From: a virus
IMG/VR virus record: IMGVR_UViG_3300046794_000505
Span: 1-64,000 of that record
Direction: 5' to 3' (one strand)
Length of the DNA stretch: 64,000 nucleotides
Part shown: positions 6,111-60,474 of the stretch, piece after piece
How the letters are laid out: every line of letters begins with the position of its first letter
How positions within the stretch are numbered: the stretch's first letter is position 1
Notes under the pieces: generated by a model
Database searches by the model: none
Told to the model about the DNA's origin: nothing
Seen by the model: only the letters and a program-made list of their open reading frames with translations
Position numbers and translations under genes: made by a program

Positions 6111-6126
6111 CATCATGCCGTCACGA
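6111..6126 (-). promoter_or_regulatory. Putative late promoter (TCGTGAC-N2-YANNNT)
   Basis: TCGTGAC GG CATGAT upstream of the 6076/tailspike operon. Confidence 0.65.
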
Positions 6127-6440: not shown

Positions 6441-6549
6441 TCTCCATCGGGAACCTGACTCGGAGGGATTCGAACCCTCGTCTGTACATGACAGCCAGTT
6501 GCTACTGGACTTTAAACCGCTCAGCCACGAGACAGGTTCCCGATGGAGA
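6441..6549 (-). ncRNA. tRNA-like (class II, Ser/Leu-type) element inside a 17-bp stem; non-canonical anticodon arm, no CCA
   Basis: D arm tggctgagcggtttaaag, shortened anticodon arm ccagt-agca-actgg, variable arm ctgt-catgt-acag, T arm gaggg-ttcgaat-ccctc. Flanked by perfect inverted repeat 6441-6457/6533-6549. Confidence 0.65.
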
Positions 6550-6676
6550 CTTTCCGCATCTGCGGGCTGACTACCTTCCCAGTTATTCCTGGCGGGTCTG
6601 TCGGTCAGTATCACCGAAGATTTGAGCGTCGTACGACGAATCGTAGAGAGGCTTATCGGTTTTGGCGCTGGTTGTA

Positions 6677-6752
6677 TGGCGACGAGGCAAGGACTCGAAC
6701 CTTGATCGCACGGCTTTGGAGGCCGGCATGCTGCCAATTGCACCACCTGGTC
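6677..6752 (-). tRNA. tRNA-Trp(CCA)
   Basis: Cloverleaf with anticodon arm cggc-ctCCAaa-gccg, T arm caagg-ttcgagt-ccttg, encoded 3' CCA. Confidence 0.9.
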
Positions 6753-6759
6753 AGGGTAT

Positions 6760-7038
6760 TCAAATGCGATTCAGCGCAGCTTTCAAATTAGATCCAGCGT
6801 CGAACTTCGGAATCTTGGCCGCCGCGATCTGAAGCGGATTGCCATTCTGCGGATTGCGACCAACACGGGCTACGCGATCAGTGGACCGGAAGGTACCGAA
6901 GCCGATCAACCGTACTTCTTGGCCGTCAGCCAGTGCGATCTGCACCGTTTCGAGAAGAGAGTTAATCACGTCGCGGGCCACCACTTTACTGACGGCTGAG
7001 CCGCGGGCGACTTCGTCGATGAGCTCTTGTTTGTTCAT
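6760..7038 (-). CDS. HU-family DNA-binding protein
   Basis: MNKQELIDEVA...VRLIGFGTF...ARVGRNPQNG...PKF. Confidence 0.95.
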   Translation of the reverse strand: MNKQELIDEVARGSAVSKVVARDVINSLLETVQIALADGQEVRLIGFGTFRSTDRVARVGRNPQNGNPLQIAAAKIPKFDAGSNLKAALNRI

Positions 7039-7065
7039 TTGATACCATCCGTTTTGGTTGAATTT

Positions 7066-7193
7066 TGGTGCAGATGGCTGGCGCTGAACTCCAGCATTCG
7101 TAACGTTCTAGTGGCTGATCGCTCTATCCACGTTCCGCTATGTACTGGATTTAAAATCCAGCTCTTGCGTATCAGTCTACGCATTTATCTGCA
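7066..7193 (-). ncRNA. tRNA-like structured RNA ending in CCA
   Basis: Closing stem tgcagat/atctgca followed by CCA; arms tgcgta-gactga-tacgca, ctggat-tttaa-atccag, a long variable arm, and gctgg-agttcagcg-ccagc. Confidence 0.6.
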
Positions 7194-7286
7194 TCGGTAA
7201 CCGCTCCAATCCCGCTGACGCCTTGAGCCAATCGTTTTACGGTGGCCTGTACTTGCGGTTTTGTGCGCTGAGCGGTTACCGATGCA
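7190..7286 (-). repeat. 17-bp perfect inverted repeat (CATCGG stem module)
   Basis: tgcatcggtaaccgctc (7190-7206) / gagcggttaccgatgca (7270-7286). Confidence 0.85.
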
Positions 7287-7407
7287 ACCTCTTTCGAGGT
7301 AATCGGGATACAGAAGACCTTGAGCTATTCAACCACTACCGGGCAAGGGCCCCTGGTCCGTGATGACCGGACTCAAGTTCGTCTACTCGACGCAGCGCTC
7401 TCTCTTT

Positions 7408-7522
7408 CTGCATCGGAGTTTGATCTGTGACTACTGCTGACGTCTGCTTGCGGCTACCGGTGCCACCCGGAAATTTGTGCGCTCGGTCACAGCGTTTTCA
7501 TTCAGATCAAACTCCGATGCAG
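7408..7522 (-). repeat. 20-bp perfect inverted repeat (CATCGG stem module)
   Basis: ctgcatcggagtttgatctg (7408-7427) / cagatcaaactccgatgcag (7503-7522). Confidence 0.85.
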
Positions 7523-7704
7523 CCTGGTCACCCAGGTCATATCGGTGCAGTGATTCTGTATCCGAAGTAGGTCGGATCGGGATGCAAGCCCATTATGCCA
7601 GTCAGCCACCTATCGGCCTGTGTCACCCCCTCATGACGCGTTCGGGGTCTTACGCGGCGATCCAGACTTATTGAAAAAGATTCCAGGGTCGCATCTCTCT
7701 TTTA

Positions 7705-7779
7705 TGGCTGGCAATGGAGGATTCGAACCTCCGACTTCCCGGTTAACAGCCGGGCGTTCTACCGCTGAACTAATCGCCA
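7705..7779 (-). tRNA. tRNA-Asn(GTT)
   Basis: Anticodon arm cccgg-ctGTTaa-ccggg, T arm ggagg-ttcgaat-cctcc, 3' CCA. Confidence 0.92.
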
Positions 7780-7782
7780 ATT

Positions 7783-7857
7783 TGGTTGCGAGGGCTGGAA
7801 TTGCACCAGCGACCTTCGGGTTATGAGCCCGACGAGATACTACTTCTCCACCACGCA
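7783..7857 (-). tRNA. tRNA-Met(CAT), initiator type
   Basis: Anticodon arm tcggg-ctCATaa-cccga with the three G-C pairs of tRNA-fMet; 3' ACCA. Confidence 0.88.
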
Positions 7858-10480: not shown

Positions 10481-10495
10481 ACCTTGGGGTCACGA
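10481..10495 (-). promoter_or_regulatory. Putative late promoter
   Basis: TCGTGAC CC CAAGGT upstream of MuF. Confidence 0.65.
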
Positions 10496-17495: not shown

Positions 17496-17510
17496 ACGGT
17501 AGTGTCACGA
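17496..17510 (-). promoter_or_regulatory. Putative late promoter
   Basis: TCGTGAC AC TACCGT upstream of the portal gene. Confidence 0.65.
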
Positions 17511-24571: not shown

Positions 24572-24586
24572 TCGTGACCCCATGGT
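24572..24586 (+). promoter_or_regulatory. Putative late promoter
   Basis: TCGTGAC CC CATGGT upstream of 24616. Confidence 0.65.
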
Positions 24587-38343: not shown

Positions 38344-38371
38344 AAAAAAACCGCCTGGGCGAGAGGCGGTT
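38344..38371 (-). terminator. Intrinsic terminator
   Basis: Minus strand accgcct-ctcgccc-aggcgg-ttttttt. Confidence 0.75.
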
Positions 38372-38411: not shown

Positions 38412-38426
38412 ACCGTAGCGTCACGA
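38412..38426 (-). promoter_or_regulatory. Putative late promoter with no downstream ORF
   Basis: TCGTGAC GC TACGGT. Confidence 0.55.
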
Positions 38427-39135
38427 GGTGGCCACGTCCGGCCCGGGGGTCTGGGGGAGCATCTGAACCCAGTGCTTTTTATTCGTTTCGTCCCGCTCCC
38501 ATCGCCAACCTGCGCCGTGCAGCATTTTCATTTCTGCTTTGATCAGCTCGTGGAACTCTTCGTGGTACCCCTCACGCATCGCGCGCAGCCGGAACACTTT
38601 CTCATTCTTTAGGATGTCCCGCGCGGCCCGCCACACCTTGTCGGCGACCAGACGCCAGGCGGCGCGCTTGCACTCAGGCGGGAAGTCCTTCACTGGCAGA
38701 CGCCCCGCCCAGCACTCATCGGCGACCTTTACCGGATCAGCGACGATCATTGATCACCTCCTTGAGCAGTCGCTGCAGCGTTCTCAGCCTGGCGCGAGCG
38801 ACTTCATCACCAACCTCCTTGATCGCGGCACCCATCAGCGCTTCTGCCTTGGCCAATTGCTTAACGGCCTTTTCATAGGCAGTTTTCGGCCGATAACCAG
38901 TCAGCGGATTGCGCTCAGCCAGGAGGTTCCAGTAATTGTCTTTGCAGTTGTCGCTGCCGCTATTCGAGCAAAACACCGTGTTGTAGCGATTCTTGATGAG
39001 TTTGCTCTGGCAGACAGGGCAGCACACTTCAGCGCCGATCGAAGCCGCCTTGACGACCTCATAGCATGCCCTGGCATCTGCCGCGCTGCGCGGCTCCGTC
39101 TGCATGACATTCGAATCCATGATTGCCTCCATCAC
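38421..39135 (-). other. Two hypothetical ORFs (38421-38750; 38737-39135, Cys-rich)
   Basis: Coupled downstream of phaZ. Confidence 0.6.
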
Positions 39136-40043
39136 TGATTGACGACTGTTGGATTGCGCTCTTCGGTCAGGAATCGCGTGACCAGCGGCCCGACCGTTTT
39201 GGCCTGGGTGACCAGAAATAGATGCCCGTCATTGATGACATGCAGGTCAGCGTTAGGCATGCGCTGGGCCATCCTGCGCATGTTGACCAGCGGAATCAGC
39301 GGGTCATCGTTGCCGGCCAGCACCAGGGTGGGCTGCCTGATCTTGTGCACCCAGTGAATGCTGGTCCACATATACACCGCCATCATCTGGTAGTAATAGC
39401 CGCGGCCGCCGGAGGATTGCATTTTCTCGGCGTAGGCCGCAGCCAAGGCCTTATCGCTCCGGAACACCCCACCATAGATGTACGGGGCGATCTTTGCGCC
39501 GTATGCCGGGCTCGTATAGCGCAGCGGGCTGGACATCAACCACAGGACCTTGAGTGACGGCGGCACCATAAACACACCACAGGATGTCGCCGCGAGGATG
39601 AGCTTTTTGCAGCGCAGTGGATGATCAAAGGCGAACTGCTGGGCAAGGAAACCGCCCCACGACACGCCGATCACATTGACCTGGCCGTAATCCAGATAGT
39701 CCAGCATCTGGGCCACCAGCCGTGCCAGTCCCGAAAACCCATATGGCAGCACTGGCGTTGAGGAGCCCCCCACGCCAGGTACGTCGAAGGCGATCACCTC
39801 CTGTTCACGGTCCAGGGCTTCCATGAACGGGATGACCAATTCCAGACTCGCACCGATACCGTTGAACACCAGCAGCGGGGTCAGGTGCGAACTGCCAGGG
39901 CGAACCAGCGTGCGGATCGACTGCCCATCGATTTCGATGGTACGGATGACCAAGGCTTTAGTCGGAGCACCCCGTCGATTCGTCTTGCGGCGCTCAGGGA
40001 CACCAAGTTTTCCTTCGTCGAACGACTCGTTTAGATTGCTCAT
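39132..40043 (-). CDS. phaZ: Intracellular mcl-poly(3-hydroxyalkanoate) depolymerase
   Basis: Closely follows Pseudomonas PhaZ: DGQSIRTLVRPG..HLTPLLVFNGIGASLEL, IAFDVPGVGGSSTP, lipase box GVSWG, WTSIHW, GNDDPLIPL, DGHLFL. Confidence 0.92.
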   Translation of the reverse strand: MSNLNESFDEGKLGVPERRKTNRRGAPTKALVIRTIEIDGQSIRTLVRPGSSHLTPLLVFNGIGASLELVIPFMEALDREQEVIAFDVPGVGGSSTPVLPYGFSGLARLVAQMLDYLDYGQVNVIGVSWGGFLAQQFAFDHPLRCKKLILAATSCGVFMVPPSLKVLWLMSSPLRYTSPAYGAKIAPYIYGGVFRSDKALAAAYAEKMQSSGGRGYYYQMMAVYMWTSIHWVHKIRQPTLVLAGNDDPLIPLVNMRRMAQRMPNADLHVINDGHLFLVTQAKTVGPLVTRFLTEERNPTVVNQ

Positions 40044-40762
40044 GATAATCCTTTAGATCTAGACACGACCGGAGTGGTCAAGGCTTGATGCAGTGTCATG
40101 CCACGATGGATCCTGGCGCTAATGGTACCGATGGGAATTCCTGCCGCTGCCGCATGATCCGACAGATTGCGCACTGCGCCACGGTGTTCGGCGTGTTTAC
40201 CCTGCTTGCGAAACACTGGGTTCAACCCCTGGGCCACCAGATAGGAGCGCATGGTGGTGACCGAGCAATAACCGAGGAACGAAGCGGCCTGGGTCTGCGA
40301 GTACTTCGACGCGTGCAGATCCAACCATGCGGCGATCGTTATCCCACTGCCCTGCTTGAAGCGCGCGGCCACTGGCAAATAGGTCGTTGCCGACCATGGG
40401 TTATCACCGGGTCGCTTCGCCAAGTAGCGATAAAGTGCCCGGGCGTCGTACTCGAGTCGCTTCGCGGTCGCGTTGATAGACAACCCTTCTGCCTGCAGGT
40501 CGGCCAGCACCTCATCAAACAGCTTGCCGTATTGCATTTCGATGGCCAGTCGCCGCGGCGCGATCAGGATTGACGGGTTATCGCCGCCGGCGCGTTTCGC
40601 ATAGCCGAGTGCTTCTGATAGTTTCCAGCCGCGAGCTTTGCGCGATCGCACAGTCGAAGGGGATAAGCCTTGGCGTGCGGCGTGCTCTGGAATTGTCCCA
40701 ACAAACCCGCCCAGGTCGTAGGAGAAATAATCCATGTCGCGTTTTTTCTTCACTGATTCCAT
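40040..40762 (-). CDS. Multi-HTH DNA-binding protein
   Basis: Two xxHAxxxGxxxxTxxxRxxRGxxLxxAL repeats plus a central HTH. Confidence 0.65.
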   Translation of the reverse strand: MESVKKKRDMDYFSYDLGGFVGTIPEHAARQGLSPSTVRSRKARGWKLSEALGYAKRAGGDNPSILIAPRRLAIEMQYGKLFDEVLADLQAEGLSINATAKRLEYDARALYRYLAKRPGDNPWSATTYLPVAARFKQGSGITIAAWLDLHASKYSQTQAASFLGYCSVTTMRSYLVAQGLNPVFRKQGKHAEHRGAVRNLSDHAAAAGIPIGTISARIHRGMTLHQALTTPVVSRSKGLS

Positions 40763-41010
40763 GGTCCATTCTCAAAAATCGCCCGGTGTCACCCGGGCTT
40801 GATGTCAGAGGTACAGCGGCTGATTGATGTAGCGGGCCAGGCGATTGTCGATTTCACGGATGGCGCTGACCACATGGTGAACAGGGAAAAAGGCGTTTAT
40901 CAGTTCCGTTCTCGTCACCACATAGGACTCGAGCCGCCGCTCATCACCATCTTTGTACAAGCCACAAATCCAATAGTTGTCGTACCGATCGCGCTGCACG
41001 AAGTAGGTGG

Positions 41011-42618: not shown

Positions 42619-43305
42619 TCATGCGACCACCTTGAAATTTACGCACCAGACCCACGGGTTGGCATCCCAGTCGCCGCCGGTGGATTCCCACAACCGCTTG
42701 AACGCGATTTTTGCATCGGTGTAATCACCCGATGGGGTGAGGTAGATTCCGGGGAAACGGTCAGACTCTACGATCCCTTCGGCCACCGCCTGCTCCTCAC
42801 TGATATCCTGCAACCGCTCGACGCGAACATCCGTGATTTCCAGCAGGATCCGGCAAGCCGCCCGAGGCATGTGAATTGATGGCCGCATCTTGCCGACCCA
42901 GTCCGGGACGCAGATGTTGTCTTCGTTGACGTAGGTGCCGGTGTTGTCTTTGGACCGCGAACCACCAGCGGCGTAGTAGGTGGTTAGACCACGGTCATAG
43001 TCGAGGTCACGGGGCTTGATCCCGTCATGAATTTTGCTGACTTGGTAGGACTCACGGATCCACAAGTGATCGCCGACCTTGCCAAACGGACAACGAGCAT
43101 CGAAGCGATGCTCAAACTCTTCGCCATGAGAAAACTCAGCGGTACCAGATTTTTTGCCGACCCCTTCCAGCCTGTAGATGTCAGGCATATTCAGGTTCAG
43201 CTCATCGAGCCCATGAGGGCGCCGCGTCACCGTCTTCCGGCCTTCCAGGATGGCGCGCACCATAGGAGCTGAGAACAGGATCGGGCGTTCGTTGATCTTG
43301 GTCAT
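42619..43305 (-). CDS. ASCH/PUA-like phage protein
   Basis: ERPILFSAPMVRAILEGRKTVTRR...PSIHMPR...ERLQDISEEQAVAEG...NPWVW. Confidence 0.75.
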   Translation of the reverse strand: MTKINERPILFSAPMVRAILEGRKTVTRRPHGLDELNLNMPDIYRLEGVGKKSGTAEFSHGEEFEHRFDARCPFGKVGDHLWIRESYQVSKIHDGIKPRDLDYDRGLTTYYAAGGSRSKDNTGTYVNEDNICVPDWVGKMRPSIHMPRAACRILLEITDVRVERLQDISEEQAVAEGIVESDRFPGIYLTPSGDYTDAKIAFKRLWESTGGDWDANPWVWCVNFKVVA

Positions 43306-43766
43306 GACTTCACCTTCCCTGCCTCGACCCCAGCCTCATAGGCTCCTTCCATCAGTTCTTCAATGCCCAATTCATGCTGCATCCCAGCTTTCCCATGATC
43401 TTCAAACCATTGGCTAAAGTTGGGACTCGGATCATATTGGGCCGGGATAACTTGCGCCCGAAACATCGCCTGCAATTTCTTGGCGATATCGACACCGGCC
43501 AGGTCGTAGTCGCAGTCATCTTCCTCGGCTGACGCCCAAACGACTGCGTGGTACTCGGCCAGCAGGCTATCGAAGTCGAGTGATCCGCTGCCCTTCGGCT
43601 GTTCGAGCAAGTGCTCATCGATAGGCTTGGCAAGAAGGGCACGAATCTCTTCCATCGCTTTCCAGGCATCCACCAGCTGCAACGCATTGGAACCCATGCT
43701 GGCATCGCCTTTTACAACTCGTTGCAGCAACTTCCTTGGAACCCCATCAATCGTTTGGCTGTTCAT
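43302..43766 (-). CDS. Hypothetical protein
   Basis: QTIDGVPR N-terminus; coupled ORF. Confidence 0.6.
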   Translation of the reverse strand: MNSQTIDGVPRKLLQRVVKGDASMGSNALQLVDAWKAMEEIRALLAKPIDEHLLEQPKGSGSLDFDSLLAEYHAVVWASAEEDDCDYDLAGVDIAKKLQAMFRAQVIPAQYDPSPNFSQWFEDHGKAGMQHELGIEELMEGAYEAGVEAGKVKS

Positions 43767-60459: not shown

Positions 60460-60474
60460 AGGGTAATGTCACGA
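60460..60474 (-). promoter_or_regulatory. Putative late promoter
   Basis: TCGTGAC AT TACCCT upstream of 60432. Confidence 0.65.

What the first reader, a model, noticed from the sequence alone, without database searches (positions are those of the whole stretch)
39132..40043. Phage-borne PHA depolymerase (phaZ) auxiliary metabolic gene
Seen: full-length PhaZ with lipase-box Ser (GVSWG), Asp (GNDDP) and His (DGHLF), embedded by ATGA overlaps in a phage operon. There are no flanking phaC1/phaC2 genes and it has an extra basic N-terminal extension. Known: host phaZ lies between phaC1 and phaC2 and mobilises mcl-PHA granules. Inference: the phage unlocks the host carbon/energy store to fuel replication in nutrient-limited cells; I do not know of this as a well-characterised phage auxiliary gene.
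Basis: partly seen in the sequence, partly recalled or inferred. Interest (0 to 1): 0.8.

Follow-up and report, generated by a model that had tools for sequence, protein, structure and literature searches.

The report
Phage-carried PHA storage-polymer depolymerase gene
A complete 86-kb tailed phage carries an intact, selectively maintained copy of PhaZ, the enzyme Pseudomonas uses to break down its polyester (PHA) carbon store; the copy belongs to a lineage seen so far only in phages, which suggests, but does not show, that the phage taps that store during infection.

Summary
ORF 39132-40043(-) encodes a 303-aa protein that scores 438 bits against the PhaZ equivalog TIGR02240 (cut-off 250.6). 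It has the Ser128/Asp247/His274 triad, the FNGIG loop and a helical lid. It lies in an 85,776-bp viral genome that closes on a 127-bp terminal repeat and has no phaC, phasin or integrase. It is ATGA-coupled to an upstream phage gene.

The gene is not a recent or chimeric host fragment. Its GC resembles the phage's. It falls outside the single clade formed by all sampled chromosomal Pseudomonas PhaZ (70% identity or less). It groups with copies from 37 other viral contigs in about 14 lineages (48-307 kb), all with the triad intact and a median dN/dS of 0.08.

New here: a close sister phage (80 of 119 ORFs shared) has an empty site exactly where this phaZ sits. It carries a 72%-identical phaZ next to its tail genes instead. 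Relocation and double capture could not be told apart.

The function, mobilising host mcl-PHA to fuel replication, is inferred and not shown. The host is probably Pseudomonas-like.

This scan has already reported the same gene type on other DNA (at least 14 other phage genomes). The literature holds only a passing annotation in Ralstonia phages RP12 and RP31.

The parts
39132..40043 (-). phaZ: 303-aa intracellular mcl-PHA depolymerase homologue (alpha/beta hydrolase with a lid)
   Evidence: TIGR02240 at 438 bits against a cut-off of 250.6. Pfam Abhydrolase_1. AlphaFold2 model with an alpha/beta core and a helical cap at about aa 164-227, pLDDT 68.8.
39966..40043 (-). N-terminal extension (aa 1-26), basic and predicted disordered; absent from chromosomal PhaZ and from most phage copies
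   Evidence: Alignment. A similar F-D-x-RR extension occurs only in P0002, P0016 and the L012 jumbo phage. pLDDT is below 30. The start is supported by the SD and the ATGA overlap.
39852..39866 (-). FNGIG loop (aa 60-64), equivalent to the PhaZKT loop 34-38 whose deletion abolishes activity
   Evidence: PMC12504323.
39654..39668 (-). Nucleophile elbow GVSWG with catalytic Ser128 (PhaZKT Ser102)
   Evidence: Ser is invariant in 37 of 37 viral and 70 of 70 chromosomal copies. Numbering from PMC12504323.
39381..39398 (-). Lid hinge YYYQMM (aa 216-221), a variant of the chromosomal YYWQLF hinge
   Evidence: Chromosomal Trp192 (KT numbering) is replaced by Tyr or Leu in the phage copies.
39300..39314 (-). 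GNDDP with catalytic Asp247 (PhaZKT Asp221)
39216..39230 (-). DGHLF with catalytic His274 (PhaZKT His248)
40049..40053 (-). Shine-Dalgarno AAGGA, 5 nt upstream of the phaZ ATG
40040..40762 (-). Upstream phage gene (240 aa, several HTH-like segments), whose stop overlaps the phaZ start (ATGA)
   Evidence: It is 86% identical to its homologue in sister phage G005, where it is ATGA-coupled directly to the Zn-ribbon gene.
38737..39135 (-). Downstream phage gene (Zn-ribbon-like, PHROG 8162); its likely start is the ATG at 39120 behind a GGAGG site
38421..38750 (-). Last gene of the four-gene unit (109 aa, no family match)
   Evidence: a homologue is present in G005.
40781..40798 (-). Terminator-like GC hairpin with a T-run just upstream of the four-gene unit
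   Evidence: a consensus match only.
38349..38371 (-). Terminator-like hairpin with a T-run that closes the four-gene unit
   Evidence: a consensus match only.

Best explanation
The gene is a phage-encoded intracellular mcl-PHA depolymerase acting as an auxiliary metabolic gene. It is co-transcribed with non-structural genes in a four-gene unit (HTH protein, PhaZ, Zn-ribbon protein, 109-aa protein) inside the long minus-strand block that also holds the primase and helicase. It is translationally coupled to the gene upstream. The enzyme would be made inside an infected Pseudomonas-like cell, bind the host's PHA granules and hydrolyse the polyester to (R)-3-hydroxyalkanoic acids. Host acyl-CoA synthetase and beta-oxidation would then turn these into acetyl-CoA, reducing power and ATP for phage DNA synthesis and assembly. 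This would matter most in carbon-rich but nutrient-limited cells that are full of PHA. Shown here: family membership, intact catalytic and lid elements, true phage residence, long residence, purifying selection, recurrence in many unrelated phages, and insertion relative to a sister phage. Inferred: the substrate, expression during infection, the metabolic fate of the products, the benefit to the phage and the host genus.
For: Enzyme identity. The protein scores 438 bits against the TIGR02240 equivalog (cut-off 250.6). It is 64-70% identical to chromosomal Pseudomonas PhaZ. Its triad, Ser128/Asp247/His274, corresponds to Ser102/Asp221/His248 of the characterised P. putida enzyme, and the FNGIG loop and a lid are present (PMC12504323). 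That paper describes the family as highly specific for mcl-PHA.

Phage residence. The genome is 85,776 bp with an exact 127-bp terminal repeat and is rated 100% complete by CheckV. Virion and replication genes are present. The flanking genes match phage-only PHROGs. There is an ATGA overlap with the upstream gene. No PhaC, phasin, acyl-CoA synthetase or integrase was found.

Long residence and selection. phaZ has 59.0% GC and 73.7% GC3, against 56.5 +/- 2.9 and 64.7 +/- 7.6 for the phage's genes and 64.5 and 83.1 for chromosomal phaZ. Across 36 viral loci, phaZ GC tracks flank GC with r = 0.93. Among 170 viral-viral pairs the median dN/dS is 0.08 and the maximum 0.27.

Recurrence. 37 further IMG/VR contigs in about 14 lineages carry a copy. 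Eleven are complete by CheckV (nine with terminal repeats) and span 48-307 kb; some have an integrase and some do not. None has PhaC, and all match TIGR02240.

Phylogeny. All chromosomal copies form one clade (SH-aLRT 98-99). The window's enzyme lies in a group of 21 phage and metagenome sequences (support 93) outside that clade.

Sister phage. G005 shares 80 of 119 ORFs, has an empty site exactly at this position and carries phaZ elsewhere.

Functional precedent. The predator Bdellovibrio gains fitness by depolymerising its prey's mcl-PHA with its own PhaZ (PMC7174725).
Against: There is no direct evidence of expression or activity. The host is not identified; the nearest isolated phages (TerL 52-59% identical) infect P. 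putida and P. syringae but also Escherichia, Yersinia, Enterobacter and Aeromonas. 27 alignment columns separate phage copies from chromosomal ones. Ten of them lie in the lid or hinge, including the YYWQLF hinge, which here reads YYYQMM. Single lid-region changes can switch PhaZKT from depolymerase to plain esterase (PMC12504323), so substrate specificity could have shifted. The phage carries no gene for the downstream steps, so any benefit depends on host enzymes staying active during infection. The structure model is of only moderate confidence (pLDDT 68.8).
Confidence: 0.65

Rival explanations
1. The same fold has a shifted job. The phage-lineage enzyme has drifted from PHA to another ester substrate, such as membrane or lipoprotein lipids, acylated envelope polymers or a signalling ester. 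In that case it would serve lysis, envelope remodelling or host takeover rather than carbon mobilisation.
For: The phage copies differ systematically from chromosomal ones at 27 columns, 10 of them in the lid or hinge. A single lid-hinge mutation (S184F) turns PhaZKT into a better esterase and a poor depolymerase (PMC12504323). The only PHROG match is the generic 'esterase/lipase' family 789. Structural neighbours include lipases and a phospholipase A.
Against: The score against the PhaZ equivalog model is far above its cut-off, and the next family scores only 110 bits. All 38 viral copies match the same model best. Identity to characterised PhaZ is 65-68%, and the triad, the FNGIG loop and the lid length are conserved. 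The gene is not next to the lysis or virion genes. The distribution of the clade mirrors that of mcl-PHA producers, since its nearest cellular relatives are all Pseudomonas in the broad sense.
Confidence: 0.12
2. The enzyme clears granules for non-energetic reasons. It does degrade PHA, but the benefit would be physical or regulatory. Examples are freeing cytoplasmic space, releasing granule-bound proteins, helping clean lysis and virion release from granule-packed cells, or breaking the host's PHA cycle control.
For: The same sequence evidence for PhaZ activity applies. The phage carries no gene to use the monomers. A subset of phage copies, including this one, has a basic disordered N-terminal tail that could target the enzyme or let it evade host control.
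Against: Nothing in the sequence separates this reading from the energy reading. The precedent from Bdellovibrio is nutritional (PMC7174725). Most phage copies lack the N-terminal tail.
Confidence: 0.13
3. The gene is a host-fitness (conversion) gene. It benefits a lysogen or carrier-state host by improving mobilisation of its reserve, and only indirectly benefits the phage.
For: Three PhaZ-carrying viral records (G006, G032, G033) encode a tyrosine integrase. A Gloeobacter prophage depolymerase was interpreted this way (PMC13317609).
Against: This phage, its sister G005, the roughly 48-kb group and the jumbo phages have no integrase. Among 401 sampled Pseudomonadaceae genomes, none showed a second, phage-type copy.
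Confidence: 0.05
4. The gene is an artefact or a passenger: a host fragment joined in by mis-assembly, or a recently captured, functionless piece of host DNA.
For: The contig is a metagenome assembly, and no reads could be laid on it to check the junctions.
Against: The genome closes on a terminal repeat. The GC is phage-like. The gene is ATGA-coupled to a phage gene. The best chromosomal identity is only 70-71%. dN/dS is about 0.08 and the triad is intact in all copies. Related copies occur in 37 independent viral contigs. A sister phage has precise flanks.
Confidence: 0.03

Closest known systems
PhaZKT, the intracellular mcl-PHA depolymerase of Pseudomonas putida KT2440/KT2442 (NCBIfam TIGR02240)
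   Same: Both belong to the same equivalog family. They are about 65% identical (P0100) and share the Ser-Asp-His triad, the FNGIG loop and a lid-bearing alpha/beta hydrolase fold. Neither has a signal peptide (PMC12504323).
   Different: The window's gene is encoded by a phage, with no phaC1/phaC2/phaD or phasin context. It falls outside the chromosomal clade. 27 diagnostic substitutions separate the two groups, 10 of them in the lid or hinge (YYWQLF becomes YYYQMM). The phage protein has 26 extra basic, disordered N-terminal residues and a shorter C-terminal tail.
PhiRP12-ORF269 and PhiRP31-ORF266 of Ralstonia solanacearum jumbo phages
   Same: They are the only isolated phages found here with a homologue. 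The authors listed them as 'a poly(3-hydroxyalkanoate) depolymerase' (PMC5468394). The triad is intact.
   Different: They are only 45% identical. In the rooted tree they fall among distant outgroup families and not in the Pseudomonas-type group. They therefore represent a separate acquisition in a different host clade, and they were never analysed further.
PhaZBd, the mcl-PHA depolymerase of the predator Bdellovibrio bacteriovorus
   Same: Both are a parasite or predator's own depolymerase used on the victim's PHA store. For Bdellovibrio this was shown to benefit the predator (PMC7174725).
   Different: PhaZBd is an extracellular-type enzyme of a cellular predator, acting in the bdelloplast. 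It is not homologous at the family level and is not viral.
Classical phage auxiliary metabolic genes (for example cyanophage psbA, talC, zwf/gnd and CP12; from my own knowledge, not tested here)
   Same: These are host-derived metabolic genes, kept under selection in phage genomes, that redirect host resources to phage production.
   Different: They rewire ongoing photosynthesis or central carbon flux. This gene would instead liquidate a stored polymer reserve. No experimental work exists for it.
[quoted passage not shown]
   Same: It is a viral carrier of a PHA-family depolymerase, proposed as an AMG.
   Different: It is a short-chain PHB depolymerase in a cyanobacterial prophage, interpreted as a benefit to the host, and it is a different enzyme family.

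Membership tests
TIGR02240 poly(3-hydroxyalkanoate) depolymerase (intracellular mcl-PhaZ) | Whole-protein score above the curated equivalog cut-off, with full-length model coverage | tested here: met
   438.2 bits against 250.6, covering model positions 2-272 of 276.
TIGR02240 poly(3-hydroxyalkanoate) depolymerase (intracellular mcl-PhaZ) | Catalytic triad Ser (G-x-S-x-G), Asp and His at the positions of PhaZKT Ser102/Asp221/His248 | tested here: met
   Ser128, Asp247 and His274 align with the P. putida sequence, offset by 26 residues (PMC12504323).
TIGR02240 poly(3-hydroxyalkanoate) depolymerase (intracellular mcl-PhaZ) | Lid domain over the active site, and the FNGIG loop needed for activity | tested here: met
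   FNGIG is at aa 60-64. A helical cap at about aa 164-227 appears in the AlphaFold2 model. The alignment has no gaps in the lid.
TIGR02240 poly(3-hydroxyalkanoate) depolymerase (intracellular mcl-PhaZ) | Hydrophobic hinge YYWQLF of PhaZKT (a feature of the model enzyme, not of the family definition) | tested here: inconclusive
   The segment is present and of the same length but reads YYYQMM. The Trp is replaced by Tyr or Leu in the phage copies. The effect on activity is unknown.
TIGR02240 poly(3-hydroxyalkanoate) depolymerase (intracellular mcl-PhaZ) | Hydrolysis of mcl-PHA granules | not testable with these tools
   This needs an enzyme assay.
Chromosomal pha cluster (phaC1-phaZ-phaC2) | phaZ flanked by two class II PHA synthase genes | tested here: not met
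   80 of 80 chromosomal loci have PhaC_N proteins on both sides. None occurs in this genome or in the 37 other viral records. The gene is therefore a member of the enzyme family but not of the host operon.
Phage auxiliary metabolic gene (AMG) | Encoded inside a bona fide viral genome, with viral genes on both sides | tested here: met
   The genome is complete with terminal repeats. Phage hallmark genes are present. The flanks match PHROGs. A sister phage is syntenic.
Phage auxiliary metabolic gene (AMG) | A host-type metabolic gene maintained by selection in phages | tested here: met
   dN/dS has a median of 0.08, the triad is conserved in 37 of 37 copies, and GC is ameliorated with r = 0.93.
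Phage auxiliary metabolic gene (AMG) | Expressed during infection and changing host metabolism to the phage's benefit | not testable with these tools
   No sequencing run could be listed, and there is no cultured phage-host pair.

The most novel reading that the evidence does not exclude
Phages of mcl-PHA-producing bacteria maintain their own old lineage of PhaZ. Its altered lid or hinge, and in some members (this one included) a basic disordered N-terminal tail, would let it attack phasin-coated granules regardless of the host's control of the PHA cycle. On this reading, raiding the storage polymer is a general infection strategy. It would be traded as a single-gene cassette among unrelated phages of 48 to 307 kb and re-inserted repeatedly within one phage family.
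Probability: 0.35. Interest if true: 0.75.

Novelty: new member of a known kind. Interest (0 to 1): 0.55.

Why it matters
PHA can make up a large share of the dry mass of nutrient-limited Pseudomonas cells, the state most bacteria are in outside the laboratory. If phages carry their own depolymerase to cash in that reserve, several things follow. It would explain how they replicate in starved hosts. It would add a storage-polymer class to the catalogue of auxiliary metabolic genes. It would link phage predation to carbon turnover in soil, rhizosphere and wastewater. It would also provide a pool of naturally diverged, lid-variant mcl-PHA depolymerases of interest for bioplastic recycling. The claim is directly testable with standard P. 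putida genetics. The sister-phage pair described here, with the same backbone and phaZ at two different sites, also gives a natural comparison for how such cassettes move.

Tried and rejected
As a result, the contexts of the closest proteins P0002-P0016, which exist only in metagenomes, could not be read. This includes the 77%-identical P0002 on a 2.6-kb contig.

For sequencing runs, none was listed and no RNA holder was listed. No read-level check of the junctions or of expression was therefore possible, and read laying was not used.

The single-protein scan of viral contigs found nothing; only the alignment-based scan worked. The single-protein scan of metagenome contigs found no relative closer than 59%. 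Cluster look-ups gave no organism names for the nearest proteins or the outgroups.

I first read the sister-phage result as two independent captures. An AU test did not reject a single clade for the two alleles (p = 0.41). PhaZ identity between the two phages (72.1%) sits at the 40th percentile of their shared ORFs (median 75.7%). I therefore withdrew that claim in favour of 'relocation or double capture, unresolved'.

tblastn matches suggesting that the N-terminal extension is homologous to chromosomal upstream DNA turned out to run through stop codons (rows dropped as short) and were discarded.

The search for a partner gene travelling with phaZ found none shared beyond pairs of lineages. 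The shared neighbours are a DNA methylase, a metallophosphoesterase and HTH proteins.

The Foldseek and PDB sequence searches only return generic lid-bearing alpha/beta hydrolases, and no structure of this family is solved. I did not attempt a second, deeper AlphaFold run or a complex prediction, because neither would change the verdict.

A sigma-70 promoter scan found nothing on the minus strand near the unit.
Full report
**1. What is there.** The minus-strand ORF 39132-40043 encodes 303 aa. It matches the NCBIfam equivalog TIGR02240, poly(3-hydroxyalkanoate) depolymerase, at 438.2 bits against a curated cut-off of 250.6, over model positions 2-272 of 276. The next best family, 3-oxoadipate enol-lactonase, reaches only 110 bits. 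Pfam sees Abhydrolase_1. In alignment with P. putida and P. aeruginosa PhaZ they give Ser128, Asp247 and His274, offset by 26 residues from the published PhaZKT triad Ser102/Asp221/His248 (PMC12504323). The FNGIG loop, whose deletion inactivates PhaZKT, is present. The PhaZKT hinge YYWQLF reads YYYQMM here.

An AlphaFold2 model (pLDDT 68.8) shows an alpha/beta core with a helical cap at about residues 164-227 and a disordered tail at residues 1-28. Its structural neighbours are lid-bearing lipid esterases and the Bacillus PHB depolymerase. No structure of this family has been solved.

**2. The carrier is a complete phage.** The window is bases 1-64000 of an 85,776-bp IMG/VR record with direct terminal repeats, rated 100% complete by CheckV. 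I found an exact 127-bp terminal repeat. The genome encodes a portal, large terminase, primase, helicase, baseplate wedge, tail fibre, sheath and tube initiator, plus four tRNAs. No tyrosine integrase was found.

TerL is 52-59% identical to those of 90-95-kb myoviruses infecting P. putida (Jeremy, Dolphis), P. syringae (Touem01), Yersinia, Escherichia, Enterobacter and Aeromonas. None of these gave a PhaZ match. The host is therefore inferred, not shown, to be Pseudomonas-like. The inference rests on the enzyme's nearest cellular relatives all being Pseudomonas in the broad sense and on short nucleotide matches to P. syringae phages.

**3. Local anatomy.** phaZ is the second gene of a four-gene minus-strand unit:
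- 40762-40040: a 240-aa protein with HTH-like segments.
- 40043-39132: phaZ.
- 39120 (or 39135)-38737: a Zn-ribbon-like protein (PHROG 8162).
- 38750-38421: a 109-aa protein.

Terminator-like hairpins at 40798-40781 and 38371-38349 bracket the unit. The phaZ ATG overlaps the upstream stop (ATGA) and follows an AAGGA site at 5 nt. This supports the extended start. The next gene most likely starts 11 nt after the phaZ stop, behind a GGAGG site.

The unit lies in the long minus-strand block that also holds the primase and helicase. The phage's over-represented late-promoter-like motif TCGTGAC-N2-YANNNT has 6 copies against 0.21 expected. It heads virion operons, and none lies upstream of this unit. 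Expression with the non-structural genes is therefore an inference.

**4. Not a host fragment.** The genome has no PhaC_N domain. In 80 of 80 chromosomal Pseudomonas loci, by contrast, phaZ is flanked by PhaC on both sides. The composition figures are:

| Gene set | GC | GC3 |
|---|---|---|
| Window phaZ | 59.0% | 73.7% |
| This phage's genes | 56.5 +/- 2.9% | 64.7 +/- 7.6% |
| Chromosomal phaZ | 64.5% | 83.1% |

The best chromosomal identity is 70-71%. Among 401 sampled Pseudomonadaceae genomes, 226 have PhaZ. With one odd exception each has a single copy, and none is phage-type.

**5. A phage lineage of PhaZ.** An alignment-based scan of IMG/VR found 37 further viral contigs with a homologue. 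For 36 of them identity is 61-74%; the 37th is Ralstonia phage RP12 at 45%. None carries PhaC. Eleven are complete by CheckV (nine with terminal repeats) and span 48-307 kb. Three records have an integrase and the others do not. The complete ones have no phasin or acyl-CoA synthetase. All 38 copies match TIGR02240 and all keep the triad.

Within each viral locus, phaZ GC follows the GC of its flanks (r = 0.93, n = 36). Viral-viral dN/dS has a median of 0.08 and a maximum of 0.27 over 170 pairs. Within +/-4 kb, PhaZ is the only gene shared by the roughly 14 lineages. The few shared neighbours are ordinary phage accessory genes.

In a 116-row tree, all 70 chromosomal copies form one clade (SH-aLRT 99), and all viral copies plus the nearest metagenome proteins lie on the other side. 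A second tree was rooted with 25 distant family members taken from an exhaustive search of 1.84 billion representatives. In it:
- The Pseudomonas-type group is supported at 99.
- The chromosomal clade is supported at 98.
- A group of 21 phage and metagenome sequences that includes the window's enzyme is supported at 93.
- The L030/L033 phage clade stands apart.
- RP12 falls among the outgroups.

These are quick-search trees with long phage branches, so the number of capture events is uncertain. 27 columns separate phage copies from chromosomal ones, 10 of them in the lid or hinge. The basic N-terminal tail is shared only with P0002, P0016 and the 307-kb phage behind L012.

**6. The sister phage, the new element for this window.** G005 is a complete 90,791-bp genome with terminal repeats. 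It shares 80 of 119 ORFs with this phage in collinear order, with a median identity of 75.7%. At the window's phaZ position, G005's HTH gene (86% identical) is ATGA-coupled directly to the Zn-ribbon gene. DNA homology runs up to window position 40068 and resumes inside the Zn-ribbon gene.

G005's own phaZ is 72% identical to the window's. It lies next to the tail-tube-initiator and baseplate region, where this genome has no phaZ. The two alleles fall in different sub-groups of the tree. However, an AU test does not reject a single clade (p = 0.41), and their divergence is typical of the two genomes as a whole (40th percentile). Either the ancestor had phaZ and it moved, or it was captured twice. 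In both cases the gene was inserted at least twice and kept.

**7. Function.** The best-supported reading (confidence 0.65) is that the phage makes a working intracellular mcl-PHA depolymerase. The enzyme would liquidate the host's granules, and host beta-oxidation would turn the monomers into energy and carbon for phage production. This is an inference from family membership and selection. The closest functional precedent is the predator Bdellovibrio, which benefits from depolymerising its prey's PHA (PMC7174725). The rivals are listed with their tests: a shifted ester substrate, granule clearance for physical or regulatory reasons, a benefit to lysogens, and an artefact or passenger gene.

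**8. Novelty.** The held literature has a one-line annotation in phages RP12 and RP31 (PMC5468394) and a PHB-depolymerase candidate in a Gloeobacter prophage (PMC13317609). Four other searches found nothing on phage mcl-PhaZ. This scan has already reported the same gene type in at least 14 other phage genomes, with the same general reading. I reached the lineage, selection and context results independently here. I rate it a new member of a known kind: an auxiliary metabolic gene that encodes a known enzyme family. Interest is moderate to high because the claim is recurrent, unstudied and directly testable.

Noticed in passing
window 6112-6126, 10481-10495, 17496-17510, 24572-24586, 38412-38426, 60460-60474: The motif TCGTGAC-N2-YANNNT occurs 6 times, against 0.21 expected by shuffling. 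Five copies precede virion operons. The copy at 38412-38426(-) lies at the 3' end of the phaZ unit, just before a terminator-like hairpin, which is an odd place for a promoter.
   Followed up: partly
window 6454-7857: A cluster of four tRNA genes on the minus strand: Ser(ACT), Trp, Asn and Met. The Ser tRNA has an unusual ACT anticodon call and may be a mis-call or a structured element.
   Followed up: no
G000 82254-83462 (L120:2254-3462, beyond the window): A 402-aa protein with PAPS_reduct and DUF3440 domains.
   Followed up: no
L025:2100-2711: One viral PhaZ copy, in the roughly 48-kb phage group, ends after about 204 aa. This could be a truncated or frameshifted allele, or an assembly error.
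   Followed up: no
L012:10001-10843, P0002, P0016: A basic N-terminal 'F-D-x-RR' extension like the window's occurs in a 307-kb jumbo phage and in two proteins known only from metagenomes. These lie in different sub-groups of the tree. This hints that the tail is either ancestral and often lost, or gained repeatedly.
   Followed up: partly
L002, L004 (7-10-kb viral contigs): In these fragments phaZ lies beside homologues of window genes 1147-2905, the region that another note of this scan reads as diversity-generating retroelement targets. That would be a third phaZ position in relatives of this phage.
   Followed up: no
G284 (a Pseudomonadaceae genome): This is the only sampled genome with two PhaZ matches, both weak (best E = 7e-73). 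It may hold a split or decayed phaZ.
   Followed up: no
window 43221-43317: This is the only stretch of the 36-44 kb region with nucleotide-level similarity to isolated phages. It is 84-90% identical over about 95 nt to P. syringae phages such as phiPSA1, psageK9, Medea1 and Cruim01, inside the PHROG 874 gene.
   Followed up: no
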